DNA of 64,000 nucleotides from Giardia intestinalis (taxonomy: Eukaryota), in assembly GCA_000002435.2 (NCBI GenBank), contig CM018793.1; one strand, written 5' to 3'. The first letter of the stretch is position 1. Every line of letters begins with the position of its first letter. The notes under the pieces are model-generated. The model did not search any database, had not been told where the DNA came from, and was given only the letters and a program-made list of their open reading frames with translations. Shown piece after piece: positions 38,477 to 54,994 of this stretch. Both the position numbers and the translations under genes were made by a program.

Positions 38477-40006
38477 CTACGTACTGAAATTGTCAGTGTT
38501 AGTCATGCTGTAATCCCTAGAGTTTGTCACTGCATTATCATAAAAGGAGTGCTCTCCATTAAAGCTGTTGAGTGCGTCATCCTTTTTCTTAGCTTTCTTG
38601 CTCCCTGAAATTGGGCACATAAACTCAGCAAAAAGAGCACACACCAAAAGGTGATTAAAGTGCAACATGTCGTATGCTCTAAGCCTCCCTGGATGCCAAA
38701 TCACATAGACTATGCTGGTTAACAAAATTAAGCTCTCCCATATGATGCAGAAGAAAGTAAGATAGTAGACTCTCTTGGCATCTATATACACCTTAGTCCT
38801 GCGCATACAATCCATCATAAGAAACATCATAATTAATGAAACAACATACGTTACCGTAGCAATGGCAGCAAAGACGTAAGAGGACGCTGTGTAGGATTTG
38901 CCCAGAGCGGGATCAATGTGGCAAAGCGTGATAGACGCAGACCCGATTGCTGCAAAGATGGGAGTCACAATAACTGGTATTTTGCCTCTAAAGAATGAAA
39001 GGAGCCTCACTAGCTGCACAAACTCGTTAGGGATAGAAACAAGAAGATGTCTGCACGCCATTAGTAATAGAGTAAGAGATCCCACGATCGAGAGTTGCTC
39101 CAGGGCGGAGTTTGCGATGATGTATTCGAATGTGTCATCAAAGTACTGCAGTAGGGAAAGCGGCGTAAAGGAGAAGAGAGCACAGAGTGACATCCAGATG
39201 GAAAGCTTGGAGAAGAATGGAAACTCTGAGAATCTCCCAGGCCACGATAGGCGAAGCACCCAGGAGATATGAATGAATACCGCGGCCCCGATAGCCATGC
39301 CCACGCAGATGAGAACCACTGAAAGAATGCCGCTTTCTTTGGGTCCGGGAACAACTTCAAAAAAGATAGAACTTACAGCACTGGGGTTAGAGAACAATAA
39401 CGTCGAAACCTCAAGCTTGTAATAGTTCTCGTCAATCCCATCTTTTTTATAAAAGAAAACATTTGATGGCTTGGACTTCGGGCCACGGTTATTCAATTTT
39501 TTAACAAAGAATGTTCTCTTTTCTAGAAGTTCCCATGAATCAGGAGAGTCTTGAGCGTATGACCAACCCATCCATTCGTGTTCGTGCAGATCCCGGTGAG
39601 ACGGAGGAGATGACGGGTCGGTGTCATCATTAGAGGTGCCTCTACTGACCGCCCCAAGGGTTTTCGTCTTGTAGATAAAGTAGGTCATGTTGAGGCTTAT
39701 TTGTTCTGTTAAGTTTAGCTTCATTCGAAAATCAATTTCTCTACTGAACGGAGAAAAGGGGCCGAAGATCATCGAAAAGGGTTTTGCCGGGGTTGGATTG
39801 CTTCTGAAATCTTCGCCAGCACAGAGATACTCGTTGAACGGAACAACATTACGGGGACATAGATCTGGGGATACCGAGTAGAAGAATCCATGATAAAAGG
39901 AGATGGCTATCGTGCCTGCAATTGCACCCAGGCCCAGCAGCAACGCCCCGGCCACCAGGGATGCACATGCACACCGCGAAAGCTTCTCCATCCTCGAAAA
40001 AGTCAT
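38477..40006 (-). CDS. multi-pass membrane protein (N-terminal signal/anchor, ~230-aa luminal domain, ~7 C-terminal TM helices; Lung-7TM-receptor-like topology)
   Basis: ATG verified with 'aattaaaaacttcc' upstream. Hydrophobic N-terminus 'LVAGALLLGLGAIAGTIAISF' and a cluster of seven hydrophobic helices in the C-terminal 270 aa. Family assignment rests on topology only. Confidence 0.4.
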   Translation of the reverse strand: MTFSRMEKLSRCACASLVAGALLLGLGAIAGTIAISFYHGFFYSVSPDLCPRNVVPFNEYLCAGEDFRSNPTPAKPFSMIFGPFSPFSREIDFRMKLNLTEQISLNMTYFIYKTKTLGAVSRGTSNDDTDPSSPPSHRDLHEHEWMGWSYAQDSPDSWELLEKRTFFVKKLNNRGPKSKPSNVFFYKKDGIDENYYKLEVSTLLFSNPSAVSSIFFEVVPGPKESGILSVVLICVGMAIGAAVFIHISWVLRLSWPGRFSEFPFFSKLSIWMSLCALFSFTPLSLLQYFDDTFEYIIANSALEQLSIVGSLTLLLMACRHLLVSIPNEFVQLVRLLSFFRGKIPVIVTPIFAAIGSASITLCHIDPALGKSYTASSYVFAAIATVTYVVSLIMMFLMMDCMRRTKVYIDAKRVYYLTFFCIIWESLILLTSIVYVIWHPGRLRAYDMLHFNHLLVCALFAEFMCPISGSKKAKKKDDALNSFNGEHSFYDNAVTNSRDYSMTNTDNFST

Positions 40007-40085
40007 GGAAGTTTTTAATTATACTTCTGAAAAGACGTGACCCAGTCGAGACAAAAGCAAAAGACAAGACCGAAAGGTAAAGCCA

Positions 40086-41252
40086 TTACAGATTTTTACT
40101 AGTAGGGCAGTTCTTGTAGGGATAATCCACTATGTTTGGCTTGGCGATGGGAAGCTCACAGTATAGAGAGTAGAAGTACTGTGAATAGTCATGGACGACT
40201 GTGCGGTGGGAGAGGCTACGCTCCTTGGCAGTTTTGGTGAATGACGTGCTCAAGTCCAAGAAGCTATCGAACCATCCTTGTTTATCCTCTGTGAGAACAT
40301 AGTGTAACGTTTCCTCGGCCGGAAGATTGTTCGTGTACCCTACTTCTATGGCGCTTTCAGCATACTGCTTACCCACCCGTACAGCACTGTCCATAGCACT
40401 TGTTGCTAAGCTTTCAACCTGTGCCTTTGTGTTGCTGTATGCCATCATTGTTGCATGCGATGTCATATAGTAGACCACGTCACTGAATCTCTCTGCCACG
40501 CTCTGTATGTCGAGAAGCATGTCTATCTCGAGTGCCAAGTCAAATAGACTGAACGACTCTTCAATTGTCGCCAACTCTGTACGAACCCAGAGGGGCTTGA
40601 TTGCCACGGAAATGGGGAGCTTTTGACCAGCCAGGTAAAGCATGCGGATGTAATCTGTATACGCGGTTGGATTGGCCGGTTCCTGGTCAATATGGAGTGT
40701 CCCAATCAGCAGATCTGAATTGGCGTTCTTAAACAATCTGACTGCCTCAGCAATCTGTTCCATGCGCTCATAGTTTTCCAGGTTATCGGGCTCATCATTA
40801 AGATATACCATTGGGTGGGTCGTGATCTTTTTAGCCGTTAGCTTTGCAATCGCAGAGCGGACGGCCTGTGAATGTGGAATTTGCAGATTGGAAAAGTACG
40901 CATCCCATTCCCATTCTGCAGAGCCTATAAAGAGGTAGACCTCTGAGATCCCGTGCTGCTTGCAGAACGCGCAGAGATACGTAATCTCATCATGTTGGTC
41001 CTCTAGTAGAACTTGCCACGCAGGTGTACTCCCAACTTTACTGTCTGTCGTGTGGGACCAGACGTAGAGACCTTTGGAACTGGAGACGTATGTACCAAAA
41101 GACGGCACTACTGGAGGCTTTCCGTCTCCCGTAGACAGCGTGGAGAAAGTTGTCGACGAAGTAAAGATGATCCCTGCTGCTAGTGCACTTAAAACAATTG
41201 CCCCAACCGTAAACCCTATGGCAACTCCTAGGTCCTTGCTTGGTCTGTGCAT
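40086..41252 (-). CDS. type II membrane protein with luminal globular domain (hypothetical)
   Basis: ATG verified. Single N-terminal TM 'LGVAIGFTVGAIVLSALAAGIIF', then a ~340-aa domain of mixed composition. No confident family. Confidence 0.4.
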   Translation of the reverse strand: MHRPSKDLGVAIGFTVGAIVLSALAAGIIFTSSTTFSTLSTGDGKPPVVPSFGTYVSSSKGLYVWSHTTDSKVGSTPAWQVLLEDQHDEITYLCAFCKQHGISEVYLFIGSAEWEWDAYFSNLQIPHSQAVRSAIAKLTAKKITTHPMVYLNDEPDNLENYERMEQIAEAVRLFKNANSDLLIGTLHIDQEPANPTAYTDYIRMLYLAGQKLPISVAIKPLWVRTELATIEESFSLFDLALEIDMLLDIQSVAERFSDVVYYMTSHATMMAYSNTKAQVESLATSAMDSAVRVGKQYAESAIEVGYTNNLPAEETLHYVLTEDKQGWFDSFLDLSTSFTKTAKERSLSHRTVVHDYSQYFYSLYCELPIAKPNIVDYPYKNCPTSKNL

Positions 41253-41381
41253 GGTTTTTTTCGGCCCAGCTTCTCAGATTAAAACTACAGCATCCTACAG
41301 GAACACACTGTAGAGCCGACGACCCAGTTGCGTCTAAAATAAAAGCTGCTGCTTGGATGCTAAAATGTAAAAATTGAATCC

Positions 41382-44300
41382 ATGAAGGCGCTTTCGCTTT
41401 CGCCATCAAAGGTTGAGTTTTTGGGTGTAACCACCGGCCGTGTTTATACCAAAGCAGTGAAGATTATTAATGTATCAAAATCATCGATTAAGGTTCGCAT
41501 GAATGCCCCCACCACAGAGAGCTTTCGCCTTCAAGCAGACGTGGAGGCTAATCTACCTCCCGGGCTCTCTCAAACAATCCACATCTCCTTTTATACAGAG
41601 GACACTGTAGGGTCTGAGTACCACGACTCTGTAGTAATATACTCAATGCACGAACAGCTTGAACTTCCTCTGTTTGCAGAAAAGTGCAGGCCTCACTTGT
41701 TCCCGGACACTTCTCACCTCTCTTTTGGCAATCTAATTCCTGGATACCCCATTACCAAGGACTTGGTGATCACGAATAAGGGAACAGAAGACGGACAGTT
41801 TACTATTAAGATTGATGCGAGTGAAGAGGAGTTTGCCCGAGGGTCTCAGAGCGATATTCCCCCGCTGTCTAAAATCTTGTCCTTCAGCACTATGACCGGG
41901 AGAGTGCCGTGTGGGAAAGCCGTCACTGTGCGTGCGACAATAGTTTGTAACAAAACTGGCGCATACCGCGGAATTGTTCGGCTTATTGATCAGTACAAGA
42001 GCGAAGAACTCATAGATGTTTCGTGTAGCATCATAGAGCCAGGACTGGTATACTATCATTACTTAGACGATCTCTCCAAATCTGAGGCAATTACAAGCAA
42101 ATTTTCCACTACACGGCTATCTACTTTTGAGACCAAGACGTTTGACCCCGACGATCCTCGTTCTAAGCCCCGAACTCTTGTCCCTCTAGACATTTGGAAA
42201 TGCCAGGCAATCTTTCAGGAGGAGACTACCAAAAAGATAGTTGCACAAAATGTCTCACCATATGTCATGAATTATGAGTTTCAAGTGGAAGTTCGGGACA
42301 AAAAGCCACTTTGTGACATCGGGAAGAAAAAGCTTAAGGCAGGTGAAACAGAAGAAACTGTCGCTGCAGCGCAAATGTTGGAGGACATAAGCTTTATACG
42401 CATTGAGCCCTCTGCAGGTGTTCTGCAGCCCGGTGAAAAGGTAGAGATTCAACTCACGTTTGCTCCTCGACTAGACCTAAATCGCATCGAGCGTGTTTGC
42501 AGGTTCATGAGCAATACAACGCTTAGGGAATGGCGACGCATCTTCAGCTTTGTCGCAAAGCAGGGAAAAAATAAGGGAACCACCAATACAGATGATGATT
42601 CAGACCTGGACTCATTTGACACGACTCTAATTGAGAAGATGAGCGATGACGAGCTGAAGCAATTCGGTACCGAGTTCCGCTTCTTCAAGACCAATTTAGA
42701 TAACATAGCATACGTATACGAGGTCAGGACAAAGTGTTCGGCGTCCTCTCTTCATAAGACCTTCACAGATGCAACGTTCTTCAGCGTTAGCGCCATGGCT
42801 ACCCGTCCTCTGGTCTCTATCTCTGATACGGTTATGCACTTTTCGGCCGCGCAGGCCCAGAAGAACTTTTCGGTCAAGAATGTTTCTGTTGAACGCGTGA
42901 AGCTTCGTATTGTTGCACCATCACCATATCACATAGATGATCCCCTGAATCACAACGAGCTAACGACGTTCTTACTCCCTAAGGAGCAACGGATCTTCTA
43001 CTTGTTCTACAATCCAAAGTCCATGACCGCGTTTAATGATTATATGTATCTTTACTTGGGTGAAACAGACTACTATCAGGTTACAGTTTCGCTAGTAACA
43101 AATAAGGACAAGGAAATGACAACAAGGTTGAAGAATGTAAAGGCTGTACTGGACACCGGAAACAAAAGAACAGTAGAAGGCATGGCGTTGGGAGACCGGA
43201 AGCTCCTCAACGCAACAGAGCTTAAGAAATACAAGGAAGAGCAGCGGCTTGCCTGTGACAAAACCTATAATGCCAACAAGTTGAAAATTGCAGGAAAGGC
43301 CAAACAAGAAGGTCGGAGGACTCTTGCCCAAGGGGGGATGGCTGCCGAGTCCAGCAAGTTGTACAATTATAACAGGATGTATCTGGACAAGGATAGCGAT
43401 TCTAGCGAAGAAGATGACGCAAAATATAAGACTATCAGTCAGACTGGAGAGCTGAGTACCTCAGGACTAGCTGGTGCTACAACCAAGCAACCTGGGATGG
43501 AGAGGGCTATGGAGGTATCCAGCTCGGCAGCCAAACCGTCAGCTAAGCTATCTTCGTACAACGATGCACTGGATTTAGGGATGGAGCCGGAATACGGAGA
43601 TAATGACTATGACAGCAACTATTGCAACAAGCGCAAGAAGTCTAGGGTAGCTGAGGAGCTAGATCAGCTAGATAGAGACCATGGAACTACAGTTGTGCTC
43701 CAACCAAAGAAAAGAGCGACGTTGGCAAATGACACAACAGCACCAGTAAAGCTCTTTGGGCCTTCCAACTATGATAATTTAGAGCTCCTAAGAATATCTC
43801 AAGACATCAAGGAGTTATCCACTCGTGAGCTGGCGCTTATTTCAACTGGACCAATGGCCTTTGACTTGGGAACAGTCACCGTTGGAACTAAAGTCGTCAG
43901 GTACTTCAAAATTGCAAACGACTTGAAGAGCTTTATCAAGATTGAGCTCAAGACAACGCAGAGAAGCGTCAATGATGAGAAGCAACGGAAGAGGGAGGTA
44001 GAGCTTGTCGAGGATAGCTCCTCTGAAGATTTCATGCCTGGAGAAACTCTTCCTTCTGACCTCGGGTTCCAGCTAGGTGTGCCAGATATGAAAAAGCTTA
44101 AGCAGCCTCCTGCAACCGTTCCGTTGTCGAGCGCTAGGGCACAATCTGTACCGAACCTGATGGACCGACCGTCTGATGGAGGAACAGATGCTAGAAGCAC
44201 ATTTGTACACCAAATAAGTCCGCTCAAGGCTGCAAAGGTTGAGGTGCAGCCGTACATTCAATACCTTCCCCCGGGATCAATGGCTGGCTTCCCGATTAGT

Positions 44301-47300
44301 ATCAAATTTGTTAATATTACGCCGAATTATGCAGATATCATTAAAATATACATTAACGACAAGGAGTATGGCGTCATTAATCTGACGGCCTCCATAAAGA
44401 AGCCGACGCTTCGGCTCAACATAAAAGCATACACTCAACTCAAGGAGGCCAGGGACCTCATAGAAAAGTATGCCAATTTGTTAATGCGGAGTACGAGCGA
44501 CAGAGGACGCGACGAACGCGAGAGGGATGCTTCAACTCCGATTAGCGCAAGCACAACTCAATTCAAATCTCAGATGATGTCCGATATTATTTACTTTGAG
44601 CTGACACCTGCAAACATATACGACAAGGTTATTCAGAGAAACATTTCCATTATTAATACGGGCACAGCCCCAACAGCATTGGCCTTGGCTGTCGGTGCAG
44701 ACTGTGTCTTTTCACGAAACTGCGTCGCCGGAGGAGACTTCCAGGCGCAGCCACTTTCCATTTCTGGATCGTATAGCAATAGCACTGTCACCGAAGGCCT
44801 CAAGAAGAGCTCCAGCTCTGCATCCATAACTAAGGCTAGCACCGTCGTTCATTCAGCAGTTGACGTATTCGCACTGAGCGAGACTGAAGTCAAAAACTTC
44901 CAGAGCGAAAGTAACAAGTCGGTGCTCCTCACGTGGTGTCCTTCTAATGCAGAGATTACCGCAGGAATCTTAACCATTCAGGCGACTAAGGCCGATATGC
45001 TATATGTGCCAGTAATTGCACATCTTCTGCCTGGCAAGGCCTCCTTTCTCGAGAAGTTCATTGACTATGGTCTTATTAATATCGGAAAGGTCTCACGTGT
45101 CTCTTGCACTATTGCAAACAAAAGCACAGAGATAGAGTGCTACTTTGAGCTTGTAGAAGATGACATAGTCAGTGCGTCAATTACAGAGCCGGGAAGGAAT
45201 CATCTGACGGTTGACGTCACGCGGGGCCGCTTGGGTCCTGGTGAGCGGTTACAGCTCCAGGTCAGCCTTACTACCAGGGTGTTGGGGCCTGTATCGACCA
45301 AGCTTTGCTTCAGAATTATTGGGGGTGAGCAGATAGAGCTGCCTGTCAGAGCACTGGTGGAATCACCGCAAATTATTGTTAGTGAAGCCATTGAGGGCCG
45401 GTCCTCCCTCACAGTCATGCCTTCTCCAAGCATGATATCCATGACAGGAACCGTCTGCTCTTCTCCTGGGAAAAGCGTGACAAAGAGCAGGACAACCTCT
45501 CGGCAATCCAAGCAAAATCCCCATGGGTCTCCTGCAGGCTCCCTTGGTGGAACAAACAGGGTGAAAGTCAAGTGTCAAAACATTTTGCCCGAATCTGATT
45601 CTGAGTCTGAGGACCTAACATTTACGCAGCCTCTTCTTATATCTCCGTCACACATTTCATTCAATGAGGGCGTGACGCAGAGCATACCGACTCTCAAGAA
45701 GTTCAAGGTAACCAATGTAAGCCGAGTTCCGGCAGACCTATTTGTTGATTGCACTCTTTCTCAGTACATAACCCTCGTCTCTGAAATTGGAGTAAGCGAC
45801 TCAGGTGGTGATGCAGGGGTTATTAGTACATTGATTACTAAGAATGACCTATTGGAACGGTTTCGTTTATTAAGTGACACACACATTCTTCAATCTTTTC
45901 AACCGCTGAAAGCATCCCAAGACGTGGAGTACAGTCTATCAACCTACATCAATGAAAACTCTGGTCTTGGAGTCACAGAGTCTCTGTTGCGTGCTCAGAG
46001 CAAACTTGTTGATAGACTTGCACAAAAGCACAATCTTCCCGTCTTTCCTGGCACTAATGATATCGACTATCAGTCATACACTGCATCTCTACTCAACCTA
46101 AATGAGATTCCAGACATTGATGGCAGCGGAAAGCTAAAGCAGCCATCAGAACTCATGGGTGTATCATCGTCAAATGCAGATTACAACCGCGTTATGCACA
46201 TCTATATACCTCCAGGCTCCTCCACCACGCTGATCATGTCCATCCTTGCTTTGGACCAGAAGGCAGCTGTCAATGACTGCGTGTTCTTTTACTTGCTAGG
46301 ACAGACTACATGTAGTGAAATACTATCTGATCCTTCATCCATTTCTGTGCAGAAGTCGGCTCCTTCGATTGGATCCGATGTGGGGGTAAGGCGCGCGTCC
46401 CGCAAATCCTCAGAAATCAACGCGGATGTATTGAAAGAGCTTGACTCCTCCTTCCTTCCTGCCTCCCGCAAGTCTGTTAGGGAGTCTACCGGCAAATCAG
46501 AGTCTACACTGAACACACTGAAGGCTGTTGCGGGCGGTAAAGAGCTTTCAAACGTACTTATCTTGTCATACAGTATTACGCCGGCAGCTATATTCACAAG
46601 CACCTCCCTGGTGAACTTTGGCATTAAAGTCTCCGATTCGTCGTACAAGCAGAGCGTCGCAGTTTATCCCCCCATGTTTAGGGACATCTTCCAGAAGCTT
46701 CTGGCACATACCGGTTTTGGTGGCCCAACGACTGGTTCGGGCGACGAAAGTGCAGCAACATCCCTGGCGGGCACTACCGAGCTTTCTGGGGACCGGTTCC
46801 ATGCTATAGCGCGGGAGCTACCCTTTATTTCACAGATGGCTCTTTCGGGCCTTTACTATCAAGACGTTAATCTTATCAATCAGACTAATAAGGTGATTCT
46901 TTTTGTAGCGCTGGTCACAGACTATAATGATCAGCTGCTATCAACAAAGCTGTATGCCCTCAATCAGCCGTTTGGGAAGATACAACCTTATGACAATGTC
47001 AGCGTTCGTGTCTTCTTTTCTCCTACCAAGGTCGGTGTACACAATGCCAAGTTAAAGGTTTACTACATGGAAGTGGTCACCGGTGACGGTGAAGCATCAA
47101 CTCACTCAGAAGCTGCACCGGCTTCCAGTGAGCAAAAAACATTGGCATTCTCTAATGATATTAGTAATACACCTAGAAATATGAGCCCAGAGATAAGTTT
47201 CTTCTGCAATAAAGGATTTGTGCTCAGCAACTATCTGACAATTCACTTACAGAGCGTCGCGGTTTTCCGCACAATAGCATTCTCGGCCAATCCTGTTATC

Positions 47301-50300
47301 TTCCCTAACACTGCTGTTGGTGTCCCATCTCGTTGCCTATTCTATATCCGCAATCTAGGGTATAAGCATAACGTGAAGCTAACCATTACGTTCCCACCGG
47401 AGCTGTCAAAGATAGCGTTCTGTGTCATTTGGCCCCTTGGAAACATCATCAATCATATGATAAAGACCCTCCCTGTCCTGATAACATTCATAAGCAACAC
47501 TGTGATGAGCTTCTCAAGTCGGTGTGTGATTTCAGATGATACTGGCACCCCGTATAACTTGACAATTGGAGGCAACTGTGCAAATGATCCGTATCTATTA
47601 CGGGAATATCTCCGGGTCAACTCCAAGCGCTTACAGCAATCTACACCTTTGCAAGCACTTGCTCAATCTGCTGCTCTAATGGAACCAAGCGTTGATGCAT
47701 CAGCTGACGGATTTCAGAAAGAGTTCTATGACTTGGTGCCTCGCAGCGTAGACCCGTACTCATTGACAACTCCGGAATTTGGCATCTATCACAGTTATAG
47801 TCAGTTGACGGAAATCTGCAAAGCAGATGAGACAGACCCAATCTTGCGTAAGTATGGGCTAAACAAAAATGTCTTGCTGGCTTTGGAGAGTATCAACTGT
47901 AACACTCTTGTTGAGTTTAGCGAATATAGCAAGGCCCTTGGTCTCGAAGAGGTCTTCCATAACATACAGAATAAGAAAGACGCTTTTCTAGCTGTTGGCG
48001 TGTCTCCGTGGGACGATGAATCCATTGCAAGGGTAAAATCCTTTACTCTGATCAACTACACCTCAAAGAAGCCTGATGCACAGCCCCTAGGAACAGACCG
48101 CAGTGACAAGCAAAGCAGCACCAGAGCGTTGGGCTCTACCAAGGACAAGCAAAAGTCTCTCTTCCAGCACATCAGGCGGATGGTCTTCGGGCCATATGCG
48201 ACCACGGAGTACCCACGCTATTCCAACGCTAACAACCGTCTCGCATTTTACTGGCATTTTATCTTTCGTACTGTAGGGCTGAACTCCGAATCTTGCCTAA
48301 CACCCTACATTCCCTTCATCCCAGATGTTGTGGGTCTTTCTACAGAGAATAACATTACTATCAGCTTCATGATCCAAACCCTCTATTTGCTGCTCAATCT
48401 TCGACTCAATACTAACCTCCCCTTCCCTGCGCAATTCACACAGTCTACTTCAAAGACGTCGCCGTTTCTGTTATGGGCGTGTGGAATCCTGAAGAAGGAT
48501 ATTAGTATCAATCCGAAAACACTTCAGAACCTACCATCTATTAACAAGCTTCGAGTGGAGTTTCTTCATTCGTGTTATGACGACATGCTGACTGCCTTGA
48601 AAATCAATGGCGCCATGCTCAACAACATACCATGCGAGCTGCTCATGGCACGGGAAGACTTTCTCAACTGGTGCAAGTGGTCAATTGCAAAGGTGTCGAG
48701 AAACAGTTACACGAGTGCGCTTGCTGATGTAGTTAATTTAGACCAACAACCACCAGGAGACAAGGATGTTGGAAGACCGCACGAAAAAAGTGCAAAGCTT
48801 CAATCTAGCGTGCACAATAAGATGAAGCACTCAATAGCCCCTGCTGCTTCCGTCCTGCCTACAGATGAATTTGAGCCTCAACTGGTATCGCCCATGATTA
48901 CCCAAACAAGCTCTCTCGTTATTCTCGATATCCTCCGGGCTGTGCACGAGTTTTCACACCGCTCTGCCTGGTACTTTGTGCTAAGCGAGCTTGTCAGGCT
49001 TTTCATTTTGAACACAACCTCAAATGCAAAGGTTCTCGAGGCAAATATCCAAAAGCACAGGGTCTGGGTGAGCAACGAGGCAATTGAGTTTGAACTAAGC
49101 AAGGGCATATTTGACATAAAGTGCCAGAAGGAGTCTATAGCAGATTTCTTCGCCAAATTTGATGCATTTTCCAAAGCCACTAAGCTGAACGAGAACGGAT
49201 GCTTGCTTTATCTCTTCACGTACCACGCGTCCTACATGATACACGGAACCGAATTTCAGGAGATTGTAGTTAATCAAAAGTACACAGCACCAGCCAAGGC
49301 TGATATAAAGGACAAGAAGAACATTGTTACTCGGTCGCAGCTAGCCTTGCAGAAGAGCACAAAAAGAATCGTCCAAGATTCTGCTATTGATACGCTTGCT
49401 GGGACCTGCAAGGAAGAACCCCAGGGGTCATTATCTCCTCGTAGGTCTGCCAGGGGGACGCCGAACTTCTACGTGCTTAAGTCTTCACGGGCTCTGTTCT
49501 CAGGGCTTGAAGTGGGACTTACAATTCTTAGCCACTACCCTTACTGTGATGGAATCCGAAGGCGTGCAGAGGAGCTCATGAACGCCTCTGTTGCTATTGC
49601 AAAATCTTTCTTGGAGCTAGGCATCTCCAACTTCACACCGGACTACATTTTGAATCTAAAGATCAAGATCCCAGAACTCACAGACAGGATGTTTTCTGCG
49701 CTAGAATCTGCAAGATCTGCACTATGGTTGGAGATTGAGCAATTCCTTCGCCTTGAGTTTAATATCAGCCTTTTACCCTCAAGCTTGTACATGACAAGCC
49801 CCTCCTCGACATTTGACTACTCTCACAACGTTGCATACACAAACGCACTAGCGACAAATCATCAGATTCTTGCGACTCTGCTCTACCAGGTTCTGCCGTC
49901 ATATCTTCCATATAAGGCTCTTCGCGTCTTATCCAACTTAGGAGACACAGTCACACAGCCTCTAGAGGTCTCTAATGTTATGAAGTCGTCTTCAATAAAG
50001 TATAAAACCAGCATTCTTTACCCACGGAGTGACGACGTTTCTGCAGGTGGGCCTAGCTGCGAAATAAAGCTGAACACAAGCATGTTGACGATCGAGCCAC
50101 GTATGTCGTCGACTCTCTTCATCAAAATGACGCCCCGCTTCGCAAAGCCCTGTGTGGCGCTGATCGGCCTGAGACCTTCATATGAGGTTTCTTCCCAGAC
50201 CTCTTCAGGCTCCTTCTTGGCACCGTCCTTTGTTGCAGTGGTCATCGAGACAAATGACACCGTCCCTGTGAAGGTTTACGAGGTAGAGTCTAAGTGTCAG

Positions 50301-53300
50301 CAGCAAGCGAAGATTTCTATAGATGTAGACAATAAAAATGGGCTTGAAGCAAACTACAAGATCCGCATTACCGAGAAGTTCGTTGCGCTTGATTCTGCGT
50401 CTTTATCGGCAAGCGTCAAGCCCAAGAAGGTGTTTGGATACATGGAGCCCCTGACCACCCAAGCAGCAAAAACAGTCAACCCAGCTGATAAGAAGGTCCC
50501 CGATACCGTTGTGCAACCGCTCTGTGGTGTGACAGTCTCTCCCATTGCTTTCAAGACCAACGAACGGTCTCTTAACATAAAGCCCAGAGGGCGTCAGGCC
50601 ATGAACCTGTACTATATGCCGACGCATCCAGGAGCGTATATCGCTTCGGTTATATTTGAAGATGCTAATTTGGGCTCGTTTATGTACGAGTTGCGCGGGT
50701 ATAGTATCCTCCCAGATATTTCTCACACGTACAACATCAGCTCTTTGGCCACGGAATCTAGGACTTTCAATATAGATATAAACGACCTACTTGGCCACGA
50801 CCTTGTACACAAGTATGTTAACCATGAGCTAAAACAAGTTGTGGACACCAAGCAAACAGATGATGGTAAACAGGCACAAATGATCCAGCTGACGTCATCT
50901 ATAGACCCTCTTAACAAGGTTTTCACCCTTAAATATGTTAGTAGACCCAACGTTGAACCGGATGTGCACGCCTTCCGCTTTTTGATCGCTACAGACACGT
51001 TCACCAAGCAAGGCCTAATTTATCTTAACTTGCTCAAGCGTCAAGAAGAGATCCAGATGGAGATGATTGTACCGGCGAGGGAGACGGTTTCTCAGAAGTT
51101 GCCCGTTAGGAATACGATGGACAATGACTGCCTTATGAGTGTGACAATTACAAGTCAAGGCCAAAATGCGTTGCAAAGGGCAGGCCGCGGAGGAGCCCAG
51201 AAGCAACAGCTATCTAGCCTTATCAGTTACTTCTGGGTTAACGGCCAGGCAATGACTGATGGGGTGCCATTTACGATGTTGGTACGGCCTCATGACTCTC
51301 CATTCATCTTACTAGAATTCAAGCCTAAGTGGATTGCTCTGTTCAATGCTAAATTAGTGATTGAAAATAGCACTAAGGATCTGCTCGTAGACGAATACCT
51401 CTTGAAGTGCCAGGCAACAGAGCCGCTGACGTCCGGAATCATCAATCTAGAAACTGTCGCCATGGAGCCTGTTGTCTATAAGTTTACTATCAGCAGTCCT
51501 CCACTCCTTGAGACTGGTCAGGCTTCTAATTTGCAGCAGCAGCAAGCCCAGCAACTCACTAGGTATACAGTATACTTACAGGACAAGAAGGCTGTTTTTG
51601 AGCTTTCTCACTCATCTTTCGACCTGGCTCCAGGAACTTCGCAGGTTGTTGAACTTCGTGGCTTTTCTCCATGCTCTGGACAGTCGAAAAACATCCTTTT
51701 CATCCAGAACAATGGGACCAATACCTATGAGTGGTATGAGGTTGTTCTCCATGTGAAGCCACGCGAATGCAGTGGTGTCGTAGAGTTGCAAACGTCGACA
51801 AATCTCAACGCCCGTCACGAGTTCTCTATCACTAACACACGTTCAGACGTTTATGCAAACGTGAATGTTGAGGTTATGAACATTCCGTACTATTTGCTGT
51901 CTTTCAGCCCGTCTATGCAAATTGAGCCGGGAGATACCCAGTCTCTTATCCTGAATGTTAGGCCTACCTGTCGAGGGGTGCTCAAAGGCGTGGTTATCTT
52001 TAATTCTATGGAGCTGGGGGAGTTTTGGTATGAGCTTGTCGTGACTTGTAACGAACTAACTGTGAAGGAAGAGACAATATACTCTTTACTTTCTGCCCAA
52101 GTGAGTAGTAAGATCATGATTGAAAATCCAAATCCCACCACTGCACTAACTTATACAATTGAAAACTCCAACCATAATGCGTTCACCTCCCATCCCAAGT
52201 CATCCTTTATCGTCCAACACAGCAGTCAAGAAATAGTGAAGATTAACTACCGTCCAACAAAAGTCAATCTCCCCGAGATAGGAGAGTTCTATGTCTCTGG
52301 GGTGGATTCAAAGGGTGTTATCCAGAGCGAGTACAAGTACGTCTTTCGCGGAATCGGGCAGATGCCGAAGGAGCAAACAATCACTAAGATCTATGCAAAT
52401 GTGGGGTCGTCCAATGCCGGTGTGGTGACGTTCAAGAATCCCTTCCTTACAAGTTCACTTCTTCGCTTCGAGTACGAGAACTCACCCGATCTCCAATTTA
52501 ATATTCGGCCTGAAATGATTATTCAGCCATTTTGCGATGTGCAGCTTCCGTTTACTTTTACGCCCAAGTCCCTGAAGCTAGTGAAGGCGAAGTTTCTAGT
52601 ACATGTGCAGCAACTTGCCGACACTGAGGCAGGAATAGACACCGCCGAGATTCTTAAGATGGGTGAGGAAACCTTCACAACGCTGCTGAACAAGTCTGAA
52701 GTCTATACTTTTACATATCCGATTGAGGCAACTGCAGAGATAGTTCTAAACGAGACCTTTGCCTTTATGGCGTGCTCCGCCAGGAACAGTGTTTCTGTCA
52801 GTAAGCCAGTACCATTCGATTCTCTTGCGCGCTATTCTGCAGGGGATATGTCATTCTACATTGAACCTATTGATACCCGGACCCTTAAGCCAGACTCGGC
52901 TTTCTACATTGCGCAGAAGTCGATACAGTTCTTTTATCGGCCCAGCGGCTCTATGTCTCCCTCTGGGTCTACTAGGCTGCCCCAGGTTCTGGGAGGGATA
53001 GGTAGTGCGCCGCAGATTTCTCTTTCCTTTACCCCCATGAAACCTTTTGCATGCGACGTTAACATGATAATTTCCATCCGCAATAGTGGACGGTATAAGC
53101 TTCCTCTCCAGCTGGTAGCAAATACTCCAAAGCCAGAAGGGACAATAACAGTCGAGCTGGCCAACAGCAACACTGAGGGCGAATATATTCTCAAGATATG
53201 CAATATTTACAACGTGTACACAGAGTACAAGGCATCATTCAGCCCCACGTCTTCCGAGCGTTTTTCTGTTTCTCCGTCGTCGGGGATACTCGAGCCAGCA

Positions 53301-53486
53301 CAGCCAGCAAACTTAAGCAATCAGAAAATGACTCACATCCGGATTTCTTGTAGCCCAGGAAGTAGCCAAGCTAGAGGACAGCTCTTTGTAGAGACTAAAG
53401 ATGTCCTTTTCATATGGGATGTTATTAGTGGATATAAGAAGTACGTTCCGCCGGCGGGCGTTAGCAAGGTTGTGTGCCACGAGTGA
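41382..53486 (+). CDS. giant ASH/MSP-like repeat protein, candidate HYDIN-like axonemal central-pair protein (4034 aa)
   Basis: Single 12.1-kb ORF, ATG verified and preceded by 'gctaaaatgtaaaaattgaatcc'. Recurring ~100-aa units begin with ASH-domain-like signatures: 'LSFGNLIPGYPITKDLVITNKGTEDGQFTIKI', 'MAFDLGTVTVGTKVVRYFKIANDLKSFIKIEL', 'IDYGLINIGKVSRVSCTIANKSTEIECYF', 'VNFGIKVSDSSYKQSVAVY', 'IFPNTAVGVPSRCLFYIRNLG'. No P-loop, so dynein, midasin and VPS13 are excluded. Confidence 0.5.
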   Translation: MKALSLSPSKVEFLGVTTGRVYTKAVKIINVSKSSIKVRMNAPTTESFRLQADVEANLPPGLSQTIHISFYTEDTVGSEYHDSVVIYSMHEQLELPLFAEKCRPHLFPDTSHLSFGNLIPGYPITKDLVITNKGTEDGQFTIKIDASEEEFARGSQSDIPPLSKILSFSTMTGRVPCGKAVTVRATIVCNKTGAYRGIVRLIDQYKSEELIDVSCSIIEPGLVYYHYLDDLSKSEAITSKFSTTRLSTFETKTFDPDDPRSKPRTLVPLDIWKCQAIFQEETTKKIVAQNVSPYVMNYEFQVEVRDKKPLCDIGKKKLKAGETEETVAAAQMLEDISFIRIEPSAGVLQPGEKVEIQLTFAPRLDLNRIERVCRFMSNTTLREWRRIFSFVAKQGKNKGTTNTDDDSDLDSFDTTLIEKMSDDELKQFGTEFRFFKTNLDNIAYVYEVRTKCSASSLHKTFTDATFFSVSAMATRPLVSISDTVMHFSAAQAQKNFSVKNVSVERVKLRIVAPSPYHIDDPLNHNELTTFLLPKEQRIFYLFYNPKSMTAFNDYMYLYLGETDYYQVTVSLVTNKDKEMTTRLKNVKAVLDTGNKRTVEGMALGDRKLLNATELKKYKEEQRLACDKTYNANKLKIAGKAKQEGRRTLAQGGMAAESSKLYNYNRMYLDKDSDSSEEDDAKYKTISQTGELSTSGLAGATTKQPGMERAMEVSSSAAKPSAKLSSYNDALDLGMEPEYGDNDYDSNYCNKRKKSRVAEELDQLDRDHGTTVVLQPKKRATLANDTTAPVKLFGPSNYDNLELLRISQDIKELSTRELALISTGPMAFDLGTVTVGTKVVRYFKIANDLKSFIKIELKTTQRSVNDEKQRKREVELVEDSSSEDFMPGETLPSDLGFQLGVPDMKKLKQPPATVPLSSARAQSVPNLMDRPSDGGTDARSTFVHQISPLKAAKVEVQPYIQYLPPGSMAGFPISIKFVNITPNYADIIKIYINDKEYGVINLTASIKKPTLRLNIKAYTQLKEARDLIEKYANLLMRSTSDRGRDERERDASTPISASTTQFKSQMMSDIIYFELTPANIYDKVIQRNISIINTGTAPTALALAVGADCVFSRNCVAGGDFQAQPLSISGSYSNSTVTEGLKKSSSSASITKASTVVHSAVDVFALSETEVKNFQSESNKSVLLTWCPSNAEITAGILTIQATKADMLYVPVIAHLLPGKASFLEKFIDYGLINIGKVSRVSCTIANKSTEIECYFELVEDDIVSASITEPGRNHLTVDVTRGRLGPGERLQLQVSLTTRVLGPVSTKLCFRIIGGEQIELPVRALVESPQIIVSEAIEGRSSLTVMPSPSMISMTGTVCSSPGKSVTKSRTTSRQSKQNPHGSPAGSLGGTNRVKVKCQNILPESDSESEDLTFTQPLLISPSHISFNEGVTQSIPTLKKFKVTNVSRVPADLFVDCTLSQYITLVSEIGVSDSGGDAGVISTLITKNDLLERFRLLSDTHILQSFQPLKASQDVEYSLSTYINENSGLGVTESLLRAQSKLVDRLAQKHNLPVFPGTNDIDYQSYTASLLNLNEIPDIDGSGKLKQPSELMGVSSSNADYNRVMHIYIPPGSSTTLIMSILALDQKAAVNDCVFFYLLGQTTCSEILSDPSSISVQKSAPSIGSDVGVRRASRKSSEINADVLKELDSSFLPASRKSVRESTGKSESTLNTLKAVAGGKELSNVLILSYSITPAAIFTSTSLVNFGIKVSDSSYKQSVAVYPPMFRDIFQKLLAHTGFGGPTTGSGDESAATSLAGTTELSGDRFHAIARELPFISQMALSGLYYQDVNLINQTNKVILFVALVTDYNDQLLSTKLYALNQPFGKIQPYDNVSVRVFFSPTKVGVHNAKLKVYYMEVVTGDGEASTHSEAAPASSEQKTLAFSNDISNTPRNMSPEISFFCNKGFVLSNYLTIHLQSVAVFRTIAFSANPVIFPNTAVGVPSRCLFYIRNLGYKHNVKLTITFPPELSKIAFCVIWPLGNIINHMIKTLPVLITFISNTVMSFSSRCVISDDTGTPYNLTIGGNCANDPYLLREYLRVNSKRLQQSTPLQALAQSAALMEPSVDASADGFQKEFYDLVPRSVDPYSLTTPEFGIYHSYSQLTEICKADETDPILRKYGLNKNVLLALESINCNTLVEFSEYSKALGLEEVFHNIQNKKDAFLAVGVSPWDDESIARVKSFTLINYTSKKPDAQPLGTDRSDKQSSTRALGSTKDKQKSLFQHIRRMVFGPYATTEYPRYSNANNRLAFYWHFIFRTVGLNSESCLTPYIPFIPDVVGLSTENNITISFMIQTLYLLLNLRLNTNLPFPAQFTQSTSKTSPFLLWACGILKKDISINPKTLQNLPSINKLRVEFLHSCYDDMLTALKINGAMLNNIPCELLMAREDFLNWCKWSIAKVSRNSYTSALADVVNLDQQPPGDKDVGRPHEKSAKLQSSVHNKMKHSIAPAASVLPTDEFEPQLVSPMITQTSSLVILDILRAVHEFSHRSAWYFVLSELVRLFILNTTSNAKVLEANIQKHRVWVSNEAIEFELSKGIFDIKCQKESIADFFAKFDAFSKATKLNENGCLLYLFTYHASYMIHGTEFQEIVVNQKYTAPAKADIKDKKNIVTRSQLALQKSTKRIVQDSAIDTLAGTCKEEPQGSLSPRRSARGTPNFYVLKSSRALFSGLEVGLTILSHYPYCDGIRRRAEELMNASVAIAKSFLELGISNFTPDYILNLKIKIPELTDRMFSALESARSALWLEIEQFLRLEFNISLLPSSLYMTSPSSTFDYSHNVAYTNALATNHQILATLLYQVLPSYLPYKALRVLSNLGDTVTQPLEVSNVMKSSSIKYKTSILYPRSDDVSAGGPSCEIKLNTSMLTIEPRMSSTLFIKMTPRFAKPCVALIGLRPSYEVSSQTSSGSFLAPSFVAVVIETNDTVPVKVYEVESKCQQQAKISIDVDNKNGLEANYKIRITEKFVALDSASLSASVKPKKVFGYMEPLTTQAAKTVNPADKKVPDTVVQPLCGVTVSPIAFKTNERSLNIKPRGRQAMNLYYMPTHPGAYIASVIFEDANLGSFMYELRGYSILPDISHTYNISSLATESRTFNIDINDLLGHDLVHKYVNHELKQVVDTKQTDDGKQAQMIQLTSSIDPLNKVFTLKYVSRPNVEPDVHAFRFLIATDTFTKQGLIYLNLLKRQEEIQMEMIVPARETVSQKLPVRNTMDNDCLMSVTITSQGQNALQRAGRGGAQKQQLSSLISYFWVNGQAMTDGVPFTMLVRPHDSPFILLEFKPKWIALFNAKLVIENSTKDLLVDEYLLKCQATEPLTSGIINLETVAMEPVVYKFTISSPPLLETGQASNLQQQQAQQLTRYTVYLQDKKAVFELSHSSFDLAPGTSQVVELRGFSPCSGQSKNILFIQNNGTNTYEWYEVVLHVKPRECSGVVELQTSTNLNARHEFSITNTRSDVYANVNVEVMNIPYYLLSFSPSMQIEPGDTQSLILNVRPTCRGVLKGVVIFNSMELGEFWYELVVTCNELTVKEETIYSLLSAQVSSKIMIENPNPTTALTYTIENSNHNAFTSHPKSSFIVQHSSQEIVKINYRPTKVNLPEIGEFYVSGVDSKGVIQSEYKYVFRGIGQMPKEQTITKIYANVGSSNAGVVTFKNPFLTSSLLRFEYENSPDLQFNIRPEMIIQPFCDVQLPFTFTPKSLKLVKAKFLVHVQQLADTEAGIDTAEILKMGEETFTTLLNKSEVYTFTYPIEATAEIVLNETFAFMACSARNSVSVSKPVPFDSLARYSAGDMSFYIEPIDTRTLKPDSAFYIAQKSIQFFYRPSGSMSPSGSTRLPQVLGGIGSAPQISLSFTPMKPFACDVNMIISIRNSGRYKLPLQLVANTPKPEGTITVELANSNTEGEYILKICNIYNVYTEYKASFSPTSSERFSVSPSSGILEPAQPANLSNQKMTHIRISCSPGSSQARGQLFVETKDVLFIWDVISGYKKYVPPAGVSKVVCHE

Positions 53487-53493
53487 TCACGCT

Positions 53494-54948
53494 CTAGTCT
53501 GCCCCGAATAGATCGCGCACGTGGTCCTCAGGTCTTCTTCTTTCATGGACGGAACTCTGTGCAGTTCTTCCGTTATCCTTCCCTTGAATAACCCGTTTTC
53601 TGGTACCTATTGGGGTCTTTTCTAAAGCTACTTCTGGAGCAGACTGGGGAGCTGGGGTATTGAGAGATGTGTTGGCGAACTTTGCCTTGTCGTAAAGAGC
53701 CTTATCTATGTAAAACCCATGCATGTAAGGTATACAGAGAGAGGAGTCTGCCACTAAGTCCAACCCAACCCTCTCCAGATCCTCCTTGGTCACAAAGTAG
53801 AGCCCTTCGTATGAGCTTGTAAGCGCGTTTGTGGACATGTCTGCAGCAAGGTCGTCCAAGAATGCAGCAAAGACAGGAGATGGTCCGAGCTCAGGGACAT
53901 AGAAGGTATTAACGACCATGTCCTCACACGGAACCATCAGCAGGCCAGACTCAGGAAAGACGGTAAAGGAGTTAATGGTCACATCTGGTTCAATAACGCA
54001 GAACAGCTTGCTTTTGCTAGTAGTTGAAGCTGTGCTCTCGTCTGGCCTGAACATGCGTATGGAGCGACTATCGGCAGAGATAAGTGTATGCGTGGAGTAA
54101 CTTGTGTGGAAGCATATCTCTCTAATTGGAAGGTCGGAGTGATGTGTAAATTGATGAAGAGGATGGGATGAGCGTATGTCATAGAGAATAACATCAGACT
54201 CACTGGTACCGGCAGCAATCTGCAGACCGGTTTTGTCAACAGCAACCGCGGTACCTTCGTTTTCCAGCGCTATGCTAGAAACAATGCCTCCCTTTGTCCT
54301 GGCGTCATAGGTGCTCAGTGAGTGGCCATCAGCTGCAAAGGTAAGGCAAGTCTCGGGAGAGTAGACAAGTGCATTGACTCCAAATGCATCAGAAGAGATG
54401 AGCTTCCGCGAAAAAGATGGTGTGTCCCAGGATGTGCGAAAGCGGCCTTCTTGCAGGTCCACTCTGTAGATTTGTCCCCCAACTCCACCAACAATCAATT
54501 GGGGCGTGTGGCAGTCAAATGCAGAACACCTAGGGGGCCTAGGAATACGCATCTTGTACAGTTTCCCACCCTTGTTGTGAAATTCTAAGTTTCGATCTAT
54601 TTCGACAAGGGCCATGAGCTGATAATCATCGGAAAGAAAGTGGAAATCGACAATCTCCGAGTCTGTGTTCCGCTGAACCTTGAGGCCCGTGTTTCCCAAA
54701 TCGTAAAGCCGCAGCATAGGAGGATAGCATCCGCATGCAGCGAAATACTGACAATCATTGGAAAACCGAGCCTTGGTTGTTAGAGTGGGGAACGTGAGGT
54801 CTTGCAAAACATCAATCCGCTGCTTGTTCGTAGGTGCTTCTTGCATGTTCTTTCGTTCCTGCTTTGAGAGGAAGGCTGGGATGCCCTTTCCGGGCGTCAC
54901 GTTGAAGACTTTCACGTTATTGACAGTTGTTGTGACGAGGAGCGACAT
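53494..54948 (-). CDS. NOL10: nucleolar protein 10 (NOL10/Enp2) homolog
   Basis: 'FLSDDYQLMALVEIDRNLEFHNKGGKLYKMRIPRPPRCSAFDCHTPQLIVGGVGGQIYRVDLQEGRF' aligns with human NOL10 'ILSDDYSKIVFLHNDRYIEFHSQSGFYYKTRIPKFGRDFSYHYPSCDLYFVGASSEVYRLNLEQGRY'. Also 'LISADSRSIRMF'/'ILSADSRIVKMW' and 'YFVTKEDLERVGLD'/'KFVTKKDLENLGLT'. The track start at 54951 is TTG. The ATG is at 54948. Confidence 0.8.
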   Translation of the reverse strand: MSLLVTTTVNNVKVFNVTPGKGIPAFLSKQERKNMQEAPTNKQRIDVLQDLTFPTLTTKARFSNDCQYFAACGCYPPMLRLYDLGNTGLKVQRNTDSEIVDFHFLSDDYQLMALVEIDRNLEFHNKGGKLYKMRIPRPPRCSAFDCHTPQLIVGGVGGQIYRVDLQEGRFRTSWDTPSFSRKLISSDAFGVNALVYSPETCLTFAADGHSLSTYDARTKGGIVSSIALENEGTAVAVDKTGLQIAAGTSESDVILYDIRSSHPLHQFTHHSDLPIREICFHTSYSTHTLISADSRSIRMFRPDESTASTTSKSKLFCVIEPDVTINSFTVFPESGLLMVPCEDMVVNTFYVPELGPSPVFAAFLDDLAADMSTNALTSSYEGLYFVTKEDLERVGLDLVADSSLCIPYMHGFYIDKALYDKAKFANTSLNTPAPQSAPEVALEKTPIGTRKRVIQGKDNGRTAQSSVHERRRPEDHVRDLFGAD

Positions 54949-54994
54949 CAATTAATTGCATAATAGAAAGAATTCACAATGATTCCAAGAAGCG

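What the first reader, a model, noticed from the sequence alone, without database searches (positions are those of the whole stretch)
41382..53486. 12.1-kb single-exon gene encoding a 4034-aa ASH-repeat giant (HYDIN-like candidate)
This is the largest gene in the window. It has more than 20 Ig-like units with ASH/MSP (PapD-like) signatures ('F.fG.v..g......l.l.N.g.....f.i') and no nucleotide-binding motifs. That architecture matches HYDIN/CFAP-type axonemal central-pair proteins, and a flagellate is expected to carry one. The orthology is inferred from repeat architecture only. Lineage-specific inserts (Ser-rich 'SDSESEDLTF', Gln-rich 'NLQQQQAQQ') could be flagellum-specialisation sites for Giardia's eight flagella.
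Basis: partly seen in the sequence, partly recalled or inferred. Interest (0 to 1): 0.6.

Follow-up and report, generated by a model that had tools for sequence, protein, structure and literature searches.

The report
Giardia CFAP47, not HYDIN
The 12.1-kb gene is real and encodes Giardia's highly diverged, unannotated copy of CFAP47, the protein chain that ties the two central microtubules of a flagellum together; it is a relative of HYDIN, not HYDIN itself, so the result is a better annotation, not a new kind of thing.

Summary
The ORF at 41382..53486 (+) is real: 4034 aa, uninterrupted, and identical to Giardia intestinalis WB GL50803_0021048 ("hypothetical protein").

It is an ASH/PapD-like Ig-repeat giant with no P-loop. 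I count about 20 Ig units, not more than 20.

The HYDIN label is wrong. Every test points to CFAP47/FAP47, the central-apparatus C1-C2 bridge protein:
- The best solved-structure hits are Chlamydomonas FAP47 (1.4e-32) and mouse CFAP47. The HYDIN chains in the PDB are not hit even at E<=10.
- The Pfam CFAP47 domain scores above its gathering cut-off.
- An HMM built from 45 non-Giardia CFAP47s scores 723 bits in five collinear pieces spanning the protein. A HYDIN HMM scores 41 bits.
- The layout is 10 ASH + helical module + 10 ASH, as in mouse CFAP47.
- An AlphaFold model of the C-terminal 1200 aa gives 10 beta-sandwiches, and mouse CFAP47 is its top Foldseek hit.

Giardia departs from the family in two ways. 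About 900 aa of poorly conserved inserts lie in the N-terminal two-thirds, and the CH domain is degenerate.

The quoted Ser-rich and Gln-rich "inserts" are variable linker or loop sequence, not conserved sites.

Three Myb2-type motifs upstream fit published encystation-induced expression.

This is a new member of a known family, of modest interest.

The parts
41382..53486 (+). Complete single-exon CDS of Giardia CFAP47 orthologue (GL50803_0021048), 4034 aa
   Evidence: exact match to XP_001707518.1; family assignment
41285..41313 (.). Cluster of three GlMyb2-type motifs (CTACAG at 41285 and 41295, CTGTAG at 41308) in the 129-bp divergent intergenic region 41253-41381. Probable encystation-responsive promoter element.
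   Evidence: only cluster of >=3 motifs within 129 bp in the 64-kb window. PMC9547401 lists GL50803_21048 as a confirmed GlMyb2 target that is induced in encystation. The motif consensus is from memory.
41391..43082 (+). ASH/PapD-like Ig units 1-4 (aa 4-97, 109-208, 275-379, 478-567). Inferred anchor on the C1 microtubule seam and PF16.
   Evidence: Pfam; ASH HMM; aligned to FAP47 residues 3-147 and mouse CFAP47 22-160. The role is inferred from PMC9113940 and PMC12297659.
43179..43826 (+). Charged linker between ASH4 and ASH5 (aa ~600-815) with family-wide conserved motifs (NDxxDLGM, G733 invariant; K-rich stretch)
   Evidence: invariant columns E620, A624, G733, P775; q814-856 aligned to t766-808
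43839..47579 (+). ASH units 5-10 (aa 820-998, 1079-1211, 1221-1322, 1418-1626, 1816-1900, 1950-2066), interrupted by Giardia-only inserts. ASH10 (aa 1950-2066) is the best-conserved unit: ~80% identity to G. muris and the best segment against FAP47.
   Evidence: (AF2 Ig at aa ~1950-2066, pLDDT 60-84)
45387..45644 (+). Giardia-only Ser/Thr/Pro-rich inter-domain linker (aa 1336-1421) containing 'SDSESEDLTF'
   Evidence: 34-52% identity to G. muris in this region
48513..49034 (+). CFAP47-specific helical domain (Pfam PF24529; aa ~2378-2551)
   Evidence: (35.3 bits, cut-off 27), (hmm 1471-1589; central-module profile finds 900 clusters)
49437..49928 (+). Degenerate calponin-homology (CH) remnant with inserts (aa ~2686-2849), ending in the conserved LYQxLPxYxP motif
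   Evidence: hhalign Prob 72.9%, E 3.1e-5 over template columns 43-146/146; alignments; no Pfam CH hit; AF2 low confidence
49914..53435 (+). ASH units 11-20: ten consecutive beta-sandwich domains (aa 2845-2932, 2949-3109, 3113-3218, 3224-3346, 3353-3459, 3465-3559, 3561-3660, 3668-3788, 3794-3914, 3920-4018). Inferred C2-side arm.
   Evidence: AF2 mean pLDDT 75.9; Foldseek top hit mouse CFAP47 9ijj_4A, E 1.7e-48; ASH HMM
51528..51554 (+). Gln run 'NLQQQQAQQ' (aa 3383-3391): variable, low-confidence loop inside ASH15
   Evidence: AF2 pLDDT <50 at fragment 542-555

Best explanation
The gene encodes the Giardia orthologue of CFAP47 (Chlamydomonas FAP47, human CHDC2), a structural chain of about 20 ASH-type Ig domains with a central helical module. 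[quoted passage not shown]

Shown here: family membership, end-to-end collinearity, and the 10 ASH + helical/CH + 10 ASH layout.

Inferred from the solved Chlamydomonas, trypanosome and mouse structures:
- The N-terminal ASH units sit on the C1 seam (protofilaments 13 and 1) between successive PF16/SPAG6 spirals.
- The middle units and the helical/CH module fold into a ring that contacts C2 and HYDIN.
- The C-terminal ASH array runs along C2, contacts PF20/SPAG16 and ends on C2.

The protein would therefore hold the two central microtubules in register while staying elastic during beating.

In Giardia it carries about 900 extra residues of poorly conserved linker, and its CH domain is degenerate. 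Transcription is probably driven by GlMyb2 through three upstream motifs.
For: Identity: the ORF is an exact match to GL50803_0021048.

Sequence evidence:
- PDB phmmer gives FAP47 at 1.4e-32 in nine collinear segments and mouse CFAP47 at 4.5e-16. The next hit is FAP81 at 1.3e-8, over the N-terminal ~150 aa only. The profile version gives the same ranking.
- Pfam CFAP47 domain PF24529 scores 35.3 bits against a cut-off of 27.
- All non-Giardia homologues found carry PF24529, and two are named CFAP47.
- phmmer against them is collinear from aa 5 to aa 4032.
- An HMM of 45 non-Giardia CFAP47 representatives scores 722.8 bits, with hmm positions 27-2811 of 2868 matched to aa 3-4029 in five ordered pieces. 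The HYDIN HMM scores 41 bits.
- The central non-Ig module profile finds 900 clusters, typically 2800-3200 aa with the module at residues 1300-1900.

Architecture and structure:
- 19 ASH units are found by HMM, 10 before and 9 after the helical region.
- AF2 gives 10 beta-sandwiches in the C-terminal part, against 20 ASH + CH in mouse (PMC12297659).
- The Foldseek top hit is 9ijj_4A, mouse CFAP47.

Mechanism and partner:
- Mechanism sources are PMC9113940, PMC12154619 and PMC12297659.
- Giardia has the partner PF16 on all eight axonemes, and its knockdown impairs beating (PMC3150270).
Against: - There are no localisation, interaction or knockdown data for this Giardia protein, so the bridge role is inferred by homology at about 20% identity.
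- The CH domain is not detected by Pfam or by a family CH HMM beyond its last helix.
- The AF2 model of aa 1940-2900 is unusable (mean pLDDT 40).
- Several N-terminal ASH units rest on marginal HMM scores.
- The Foldseek margin over HYDIN is modest for an Ig array (1.7e-48 against 1.2e-40).
- Encystation-induced, Myb2-dependent expression is not what one would naively expect of a constitutive axoneme component.
Confidence: 0.87

Rival explanations
1. It is the Giardia HYDIN orthologue: the C2b-projection and C1-C2 encircling chain.
For: It shares ASH-type Ig domains. Pfam HYDIN_VesB_CFA65-like_Ig hits at 63.9 bits. A CFAP47-family profile cross-hits HYDINs through repeats. Mouse HYDIN is second in Foldseek.
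Against: Named HYDINs score <=18 bits by phmmer. A HYDIN HMM scores 41 bits over one C-terminal stretch, against 2300-4500 bits for real HYDINs. The PDB HYDIN chains are not hit at E<=10. The HYDIN ADK-like domain PF17213 is missing, while it is precomputed in most of the named HYDINs. There are 20 ASH units rather than the 33 described for mouse HYDIN. The CFAP47-specific domain is present.
Confidence: 0.02
2. It descends from CFAP47 but has been repurposed in Giardia. It might stabilise the long cytoplasmic axoneme segments or internalised axonemes of cysts, or serve another microtubule organelle such as the median body, funis or ventral disc. The ~900 aa of inserts and the decayed CH domain would reflect the new role.
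For: About 940 Giardia-only residues, 603 of them in 13 runs of >=20 aa. Degenerate CH domain. GlMyb2-dependent, encystation-induced expression and a unique three-motif cluster upstream.
Against: All 20 ASH units and the CFAP47 domain keep their order. The C-terminal array has no inserts and is 60-80% identical to G. muris. The inserts are the least conserved parts of the protein, as expected for neutral linkers. Giardia axonemes are 9+2 and carry PF16.
Confidence: 0.09
3. It belongs to another ASH-repeat central-apparatus family (CFAP65/FAP65, CFAP74/FAP74, CFAP221/PCDP1, FAP81/DLEC1) or to a non-ciliary ASH protein family (Cep192/SPD-2, TMEM131, VAP/MSP).
For: Pfam models named after these proteins hit: Cep192_D4 at 86.9 bits and Ig_CFAP65_4th at 65.3 bits. 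The PDB hits to FAP81, FAP65, FAP221 and FAP74 lie at 1e-8 to 1e-3.
Against: All those hits cover single Ig units, mostly aa 4-160. They are generic ASH folds. None is collinear beyond one or two domains, and none carries the central CFAP47 module.
Confidence: 0.02

Closest known systems
Mouse/human CFAP47 (CHDC2); PDB 9ijj chain 4A; PMC12297659
   Same: Same order of modules: 10 ASH units, the CFAP47 helical domain, the CH position, then 10 ASH units. Aligned at the N-terminus (aa 4-143 to 22-160), the CFAP47 domain (2381-2439 to 1598-1656), and ASH11 onward through to the C-terminus. It is the top Foldseek hit for the C-terminal array.
   Different: About 20% identity. Giardia is ~850 aa longer, through 13 or more lineage-specific inserts that all lie before aa 2650. 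The CH domain is not recognisable by Pfam and is only 73% probable by hhalign. The gene has a single exon, whereas the mouse/human gene has more than 60.
Chlamydomonas FAP47 (PDB 7n6g_1L / 7sqc); PMC9113940
   Same: Best sequence hit among all solved structures (1.4e-32, nine collinear segments). The N-terminal ASH pair aligns residue for residue with the part of FAP47 that was modelled on the C1 seam between PF16 spirals.
   Different: FAP47 is 2939 aa. Its C-terminal part was not resolved, so the comparison there rests on sequence only.
HYDIN (PDB 9ijj_4G, 7sqc_F0, 7n6g_1J)
   Same: Also a giant chain of ASH domains in the C1-C2 connection. It is a physical partner of CFAP47 in mouse: ASH8-9 of CFAP47 bind ASH6-7 of HYDIN.
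   Different: HYDIN has ~33 ASH units, is ~5000 aa long, and carries an adenylate-kinase-like domain. There is no significant full-length similarity to the Giardia protein.
Trypanosoma brucei FAP47 (PMC12154619)
   Same: Another deep-branching flagellated parasite in which the PF16-FAP47 bridge unit on C1 is conserved at a 16-nm period. This supports the view that the bridge is ancestral to eukaryotes.
   Different: I did not compare the sequences directly.

Membership tests
CFAP47 / FAP47 | CFAP47-specific helical domain (Pfam PF24529) above the gathering score | tested here: met
   35.3 bits against a cut-off of 27, aa 2388-2544. Chunk scans give 30.8 and 33.4 bits. The domain is also precomputed for all Giardia orthologues.
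CFAP47 / FAP47 | Full-length collinear match to a family profile built without the query lineage | tested here: met
   722.8 bits, with hmm 27-2811 of 2868 matched to aa 3-4029 in five ordered pieces. Held-out CFAP47s score 2550-3150 bits, and G. muris scores 827 bits.
CFAP47 / FAP47 | Architecture of 10 ASH + helical/CH module + 10 ASH (20 ASH in mouse) | tested here: met
   The ASH HMM finds 10 units before aa 2060 and 9 after aa 2850. AF2 resolves 10 beta-sandwiches in aa 2845-4018. Some N-terminal units have marginal scores.
CFAP47 / FAP47 | Calponin-homology domain between the CFAP47 domain and ASH11 | tested here: inconclusive
   No Pfam CH hit at E<=1, whereas frog and Hondaea CFAP47 pass (29.5 and 26.2 bits). 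hhalign against 150 CFAP47 CH regions gives Prob 72.9%, E 3.1e-5, covering the last two thirds with two inserts. The AF2 model is uninformative.
CFAP47 / FAP47 | Best match among solved central-apparatus proteins is FAP47/CFAP47, by sequence and by fold | tested here: met
   sequence; Foldseek
CFAP47 / FAP47 | Located in the C1-C2 bridge; binds the C1 seam, PF16/SPAG6, PF20/SPAG16 and HYDIN | not testable with these tools
   Needs tagging or cryo-ET in Giardia. Only the partner PF16 is documented in Giardia.
HYDIN | HYDIN adenylate-kinase-like domain (PF17213) | tested here: not met
   Absent from the Pfam scan at E<=1. Present in most of the named HYDINs returned.
HYDIN | Full-length similarity to HYDIN sequences or profile | tested here: not met
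   <=18 bits by phmmer. 41 bits against the HYDIN HMM, where HYDINs score 2300-4500. No hit to the PDB HYDIN chains at E<=10.
HYDIN | About 33 ASH domains in a protein of ~5000 aa | tested here: not met
   About 20 ASH units in 4034 aa; the HYDIN description is.
CFAP65 / CFAP74 / CFAP221 / FAP81 | Collinear similarity beyond single ASH units | tested here: not met
   Hits are restricted to aa ~4-160, at E 1e-8 to 1e-3.

The most novel reading that the evidence does not exclude
Giardia's CFAP47 may be more than a passive bridge. Its GlMyb2-driven, encystation-induced expression, its decayed CH domain and its ~900 aa of lineage-specific inserts could mark a diplomonad adaptation. One possibility is a burst of central-apparatus synthesis that prepares the flagella of the excyzoite. 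Another is a role in stabilising the long non-membrane-bound cytoplasmic axoneme segments. Either would tie central-pair assembly to the encystation programme.
Probability: 0.1. Interest if true: 0.5.

Novelty: new member of a known kind. Interest (0 to 1): 0.3.

Why it matters
The gene is still "hypothetical protein" in NCBI/GiardiaDB and "MSP domain-containing/uncharacterized" in UniProt. A 2022 paper that found it as a GlMyb2 target could say nothing about its function.

Naming it CFAP47 has four consequences:
- It fills a gap in the Giardia central-apparatus parts list.
- It extends the PF16-CFAP47 bridge to diplomonads, which supports its presence in the last eukaryotic common ancestor.
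- It gives Giardia researchers a specific target for perturbing central-pair integrity and flagellar beating.
- It raises a small question: why is a central-pair bridge protein in the encystation regulon?

None of this changes what is known about CFAP47 itself.

Tried and rejected
- The third homologous-protein search, with the central-module alignment A3, returned only one Giardia fragment because the word filter was saturated. It added no depth to the MSA.
- AlphaFold of aa 1940-2900 with a 15-sequence alignment gave mean pLDDT 40. Only the ASH10 unit is usable, so I ran no fold search on it and the CH fold could not be confirmed structurally.
- The bacterial promoter/terminator scan of the upstream region found nothing and is not applicable to Giardia.
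- Literature searches for Giardia + CFAP47, Giardia + hydin + GL50803, and the bare gene number gave nothing relevant beyond PMC9547401.
- I could not determine whether Giardia has a separate HYDIN gene. No eukaryotic genome collection or Giardia proteome is searchable with these tools, and no paper I found states it.
I replaced it with profile-based counting.
- A PDB sequence search of the neighbouring lyase-like ORF gave no hit.
Full report
**Observation**

The window holds an uninterrupted ORF at 41382..53486 on the + strand: ATG start, 4034 codons, one terminal stop. It is by far the largest ORF in the 64 kb; the next is 1255 aa.

An exact-sequence look-up identifies the product as XP_001707518.1 / KAE8305895.1, "hypothetical protein GL50803_0021048" of Giardia intestinalis WB C6 (UniProt A8BDT1, "Uncharacterized protein"). 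Full-length orthologues exist in other assemblages at 82-96% identity, including GLP15_3574, and in Giardia muris (GMRT_10041, 3852 aa, 51% identity).

**Ig-repeat nature**

Pfam reports ASH (63.9 bits), Cep192_D4 (86.9), PapD-like (42.6), HYDIN_VesB_CFA65-like_Ig (63.9), Ig_CFAP65_4th (65.3) and Motile_Sperm/MSP (38.8). All are above their gathering cut-offs. A scan in ten overlapping chunks places sequence-detectable ASH units along both the N- and C-terminal thirds.

There is no Walker-A motif and no HYDIN adenylate-kinase-like domain.

It finds 19 units:
- Ten before aa 2060: 4-97, 109-208, 275-379, 478-567, 820-998, 1079-1211, 1221-1322, 1418-1626, 1816-1900, 1965-2058.
- Nine after aa 2850.
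Several of these have marginal scores.

An AlphaFold2 model of aa 2835-4034 (14-sequence alignment, mean pLDDT 75.9) is almost all beta. It resolves ten successive beta-sandwiches, including one at aa 3113-3218 that the HMM missed. The total is therefore about 20, not "more than 20".

Its core Asn is nevertheless invariant or nearly so in about 17 units across 12 sequences from Giardia to frog.

**What it is**

Sequence comparison with all PDB chains gives Chlamydomonas FAP47 (7n6g_1L) as best hit, at E 1.4e-32 with nine collinear segments from aa 3 to aa 4025. Mouse CFAP47 (9ijj_4A) follows at 4.5e-16. The next proteins (FAP81, FAP65, FAP360, FAP221) match only aa ~4-160 at 1e-8 to 1e-4. A profile of the four Giardia orthologues gives the same ranking.

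The PDB does contain HYDIN: 9ijj_4G, 7sqc_F0 and 7n6g_1J are retrieved with a fish HYDIN. None of these chains is hit by the Giardia protein or its profile even at E<=10.

Pfam's CFAP47-specific domain PF24529 is present at aa 2388-2544 (35.3 bits, cut-off 27).

In the 5.8-billion-protein collection the only non-Giardia hits all carry PF24529. They come from stramenopiles, Tritrichomonas and two frogs, and the frog proteins are named CFAP47. phmmer alignments to them are collinear from the first ASH unit to the last residue.

A profile search also brought in named HYDINs, which allowed a direct contrast:
- By phmmer, CFAP47-family proteins score 49-206 bits and cover 560-1400 query residues. 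Named HYDINs score <=18 bits.
- In a non-circular test, an HMM built from 45 non-Giardia CFAP47 representatives scores the Giardia protein at 722.8 bits. The match is five ordered pieces covering model positions 27-2811 of 2868 and residues 3-4029.
- An HMM of eight named HYDINs scores it at 41 bits over one stretch. Real HYDINs score 2300-4500 bits on that model.
- Foldseek of the C-terminal model against the PDB ranks mouse CFAP47 first (E 1.7e-48, TMq 0.37) and mouse HYDIN second (1.2e-40, TMq 0.21).

A profile of the central non-Ig module alone retrieves 900 clusters (509 at E<=1e-10). These are typically 2800-3200 aa with the module at residues ~1300-1900, which is the canonical CFAP47 layout.

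**Architecture compared with the known protein**

Mouse CFAP47 is described as 20 ASH domains plus a CH domain (PMC12297659):
- ASH1 and ASH4 sit on C1 protofilaments 13 and 1.
- ASH6-10 and the CH domain form a ring. The ring touches C2 protofilament 2 and binds HYDIN ASH6-7.
- ASH13 contacts ASH3.
- ASH18 binds SPAG16/PF20.
- ASH20 binds C2 protofilament 12.

In Chlamydomonas the FAP47 N-terminus links adjacent PF16 spirals at the C1 seam, and the rest extends to C2 (PMC9113940). The PF16-FAP47 unit is conserved in T. brucei (PMC12154619).

The Giardia protein has the same 10 + helical + 10 order. It differs in two ways.

First, about 940 residues have no counterpart in the eight non-Giardia sequences. 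Of these, 603 lie in 13 runs of >=20 aa, all between aa 223 and 2644. This accounts for the extra length. These stretches are also the least conserved between G. intestinalis and G. muris.

Second, the CH domain is degenerate:
- Frog and Hondaea CFAP47 pass Pfam CH, but Giardia gives no CH hit.
- A CH HMM from 150 CFAP47s aligns only the last helix (LYQvLPsYlP).
- hhalign gives 72.9% probability (E 3.1e-5) over the last two thirds of the domain, with two insertions (alignments).
- The AF2 model of aa 1940-2900 has mean pLDDT 40 and cannot decide the matter.

'SDSESEDLTF' (aa 1405-1414) lies in an ~86-aa Ser/Thr/Pro-rich linker (aa 1336-1421) between two ASH units. The linker is absent from all non-Giardia CFAP47s. 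Its acidic core is conserved among G. intestinalis assemblages but not in G. muris.

'NLQQQQAQQ' (aa 3383-3391) lies in a loop with pLDDT <50 inside ASH15. It is shortened in one assemblage and missing in G. muris.

Both behave as variable linker or loop sequence. Nothing supports them as specialisation sites.

**Mechanism**

Family membership and architecture are shown here. The mechanism is inferred by homology. The N-terminal ASH units would anchor on the C1 seam between PF16 spirals, the middle would form the ring at the centre of the bridge, and the C-terminal array would run onto C2. Together they would hold C1 and C2 in register elastically.

Giardia axonemes contain PF16 on all eight flagella, and its knockdown disturbs beating (PMC3150270), so the partner scaffold exists. 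In mouse, loss of CFAP47 removes the bridge density and lowers motility without abolishing the central apparatus. A similar, non-lethal beat defect is the expected Giardia phenotype.

**Regulation**

The 129-bp intergenic region shared with the divergent ORF 40086..41252 contains CTACAG at 41285 and 41295 and CTGTAG at 41308. It is the only place in the 64-kb window with three such motifs within 129 bp. The GlMyb2 consensus C[T/A]ACAG is from my memory of the Giardia literature.

PMC9547401 lists GL50803_21048 among ChIP-seq targets confirmed as GlMyb2-dependent. It notes that expression is induced in encystation and calls the function unknown.

**Comparison with the known, and novelty**

This is a previously unnamed, highly diverged member of a well-characterised family. 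It is not HYDIN, and it is not a new kind of system. Its value is a corrected annotation, an extension of the CFAP47 bridge to diplomonads, and a handle for Giardia flagellar biology.

Open points are the state of the CH domain, the meaning of the inserts, the encystation link, and whether Giardia has a separate HYDIN. I could not test the last of these.

Noticed in passing
window 41285-41313 (intergenic 41253-41381): Three GlMyb2-type motifs (CTACAG twice, CTGTAG once) lie within 29 bp, upstream of the giant gene and of the divergent ORF 40086-41252. It is the only such cluster in the 64-kb window. This fits the published GlMyb2 ChIP and encystation induction of GL50803_21048. Which of the two divergent genes it serves is not resolved here.
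   Followed up: partly
window 58834-62043 (+): A 1069-aa ORF has polysaccharide lyase family 8 N-terminal and super-sandwich domains (Pfam 34 and 43.9 bits). This is an unusual enzyme family for a protist and a possible lateral-transfer candidate. It has no PDB sequence hit.
   Followed up: partly
window 54995-56719 (-): A 574-aa ORF rich in EGF-like / teneurin-type EGF repeats, i.e. a Giardia high-cysteine membrane protein type.
   Followed up: no
window 53484-53496: The stop codon of the giant gene (53484-53486) and the end of the convergent NOL10-like ORF (53494-54951, -) are only 7 bp apart, so their 3' ends must overlap or abut.
   Followed up: no
window 36334-41252: Three consecutive ORFs (705, 509 and 388 aa) have no Pfam family at E<=1e-3.
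   Followed up: no
window 43799-44257 (-): A 152-aa antisense ORF lies inside the giant gene. It is most likely a chance ORF.
   Followed up: no
P0005 (Hondaea fermentalgiana, NCBI name 'Cilia- and flagella-associated protein 65'): The public name looks wrong. The protein has the CFAP47 domain (129 bits) and a CH domain, and it is collinear with CFAP47 proteins.
   Followed up: partly
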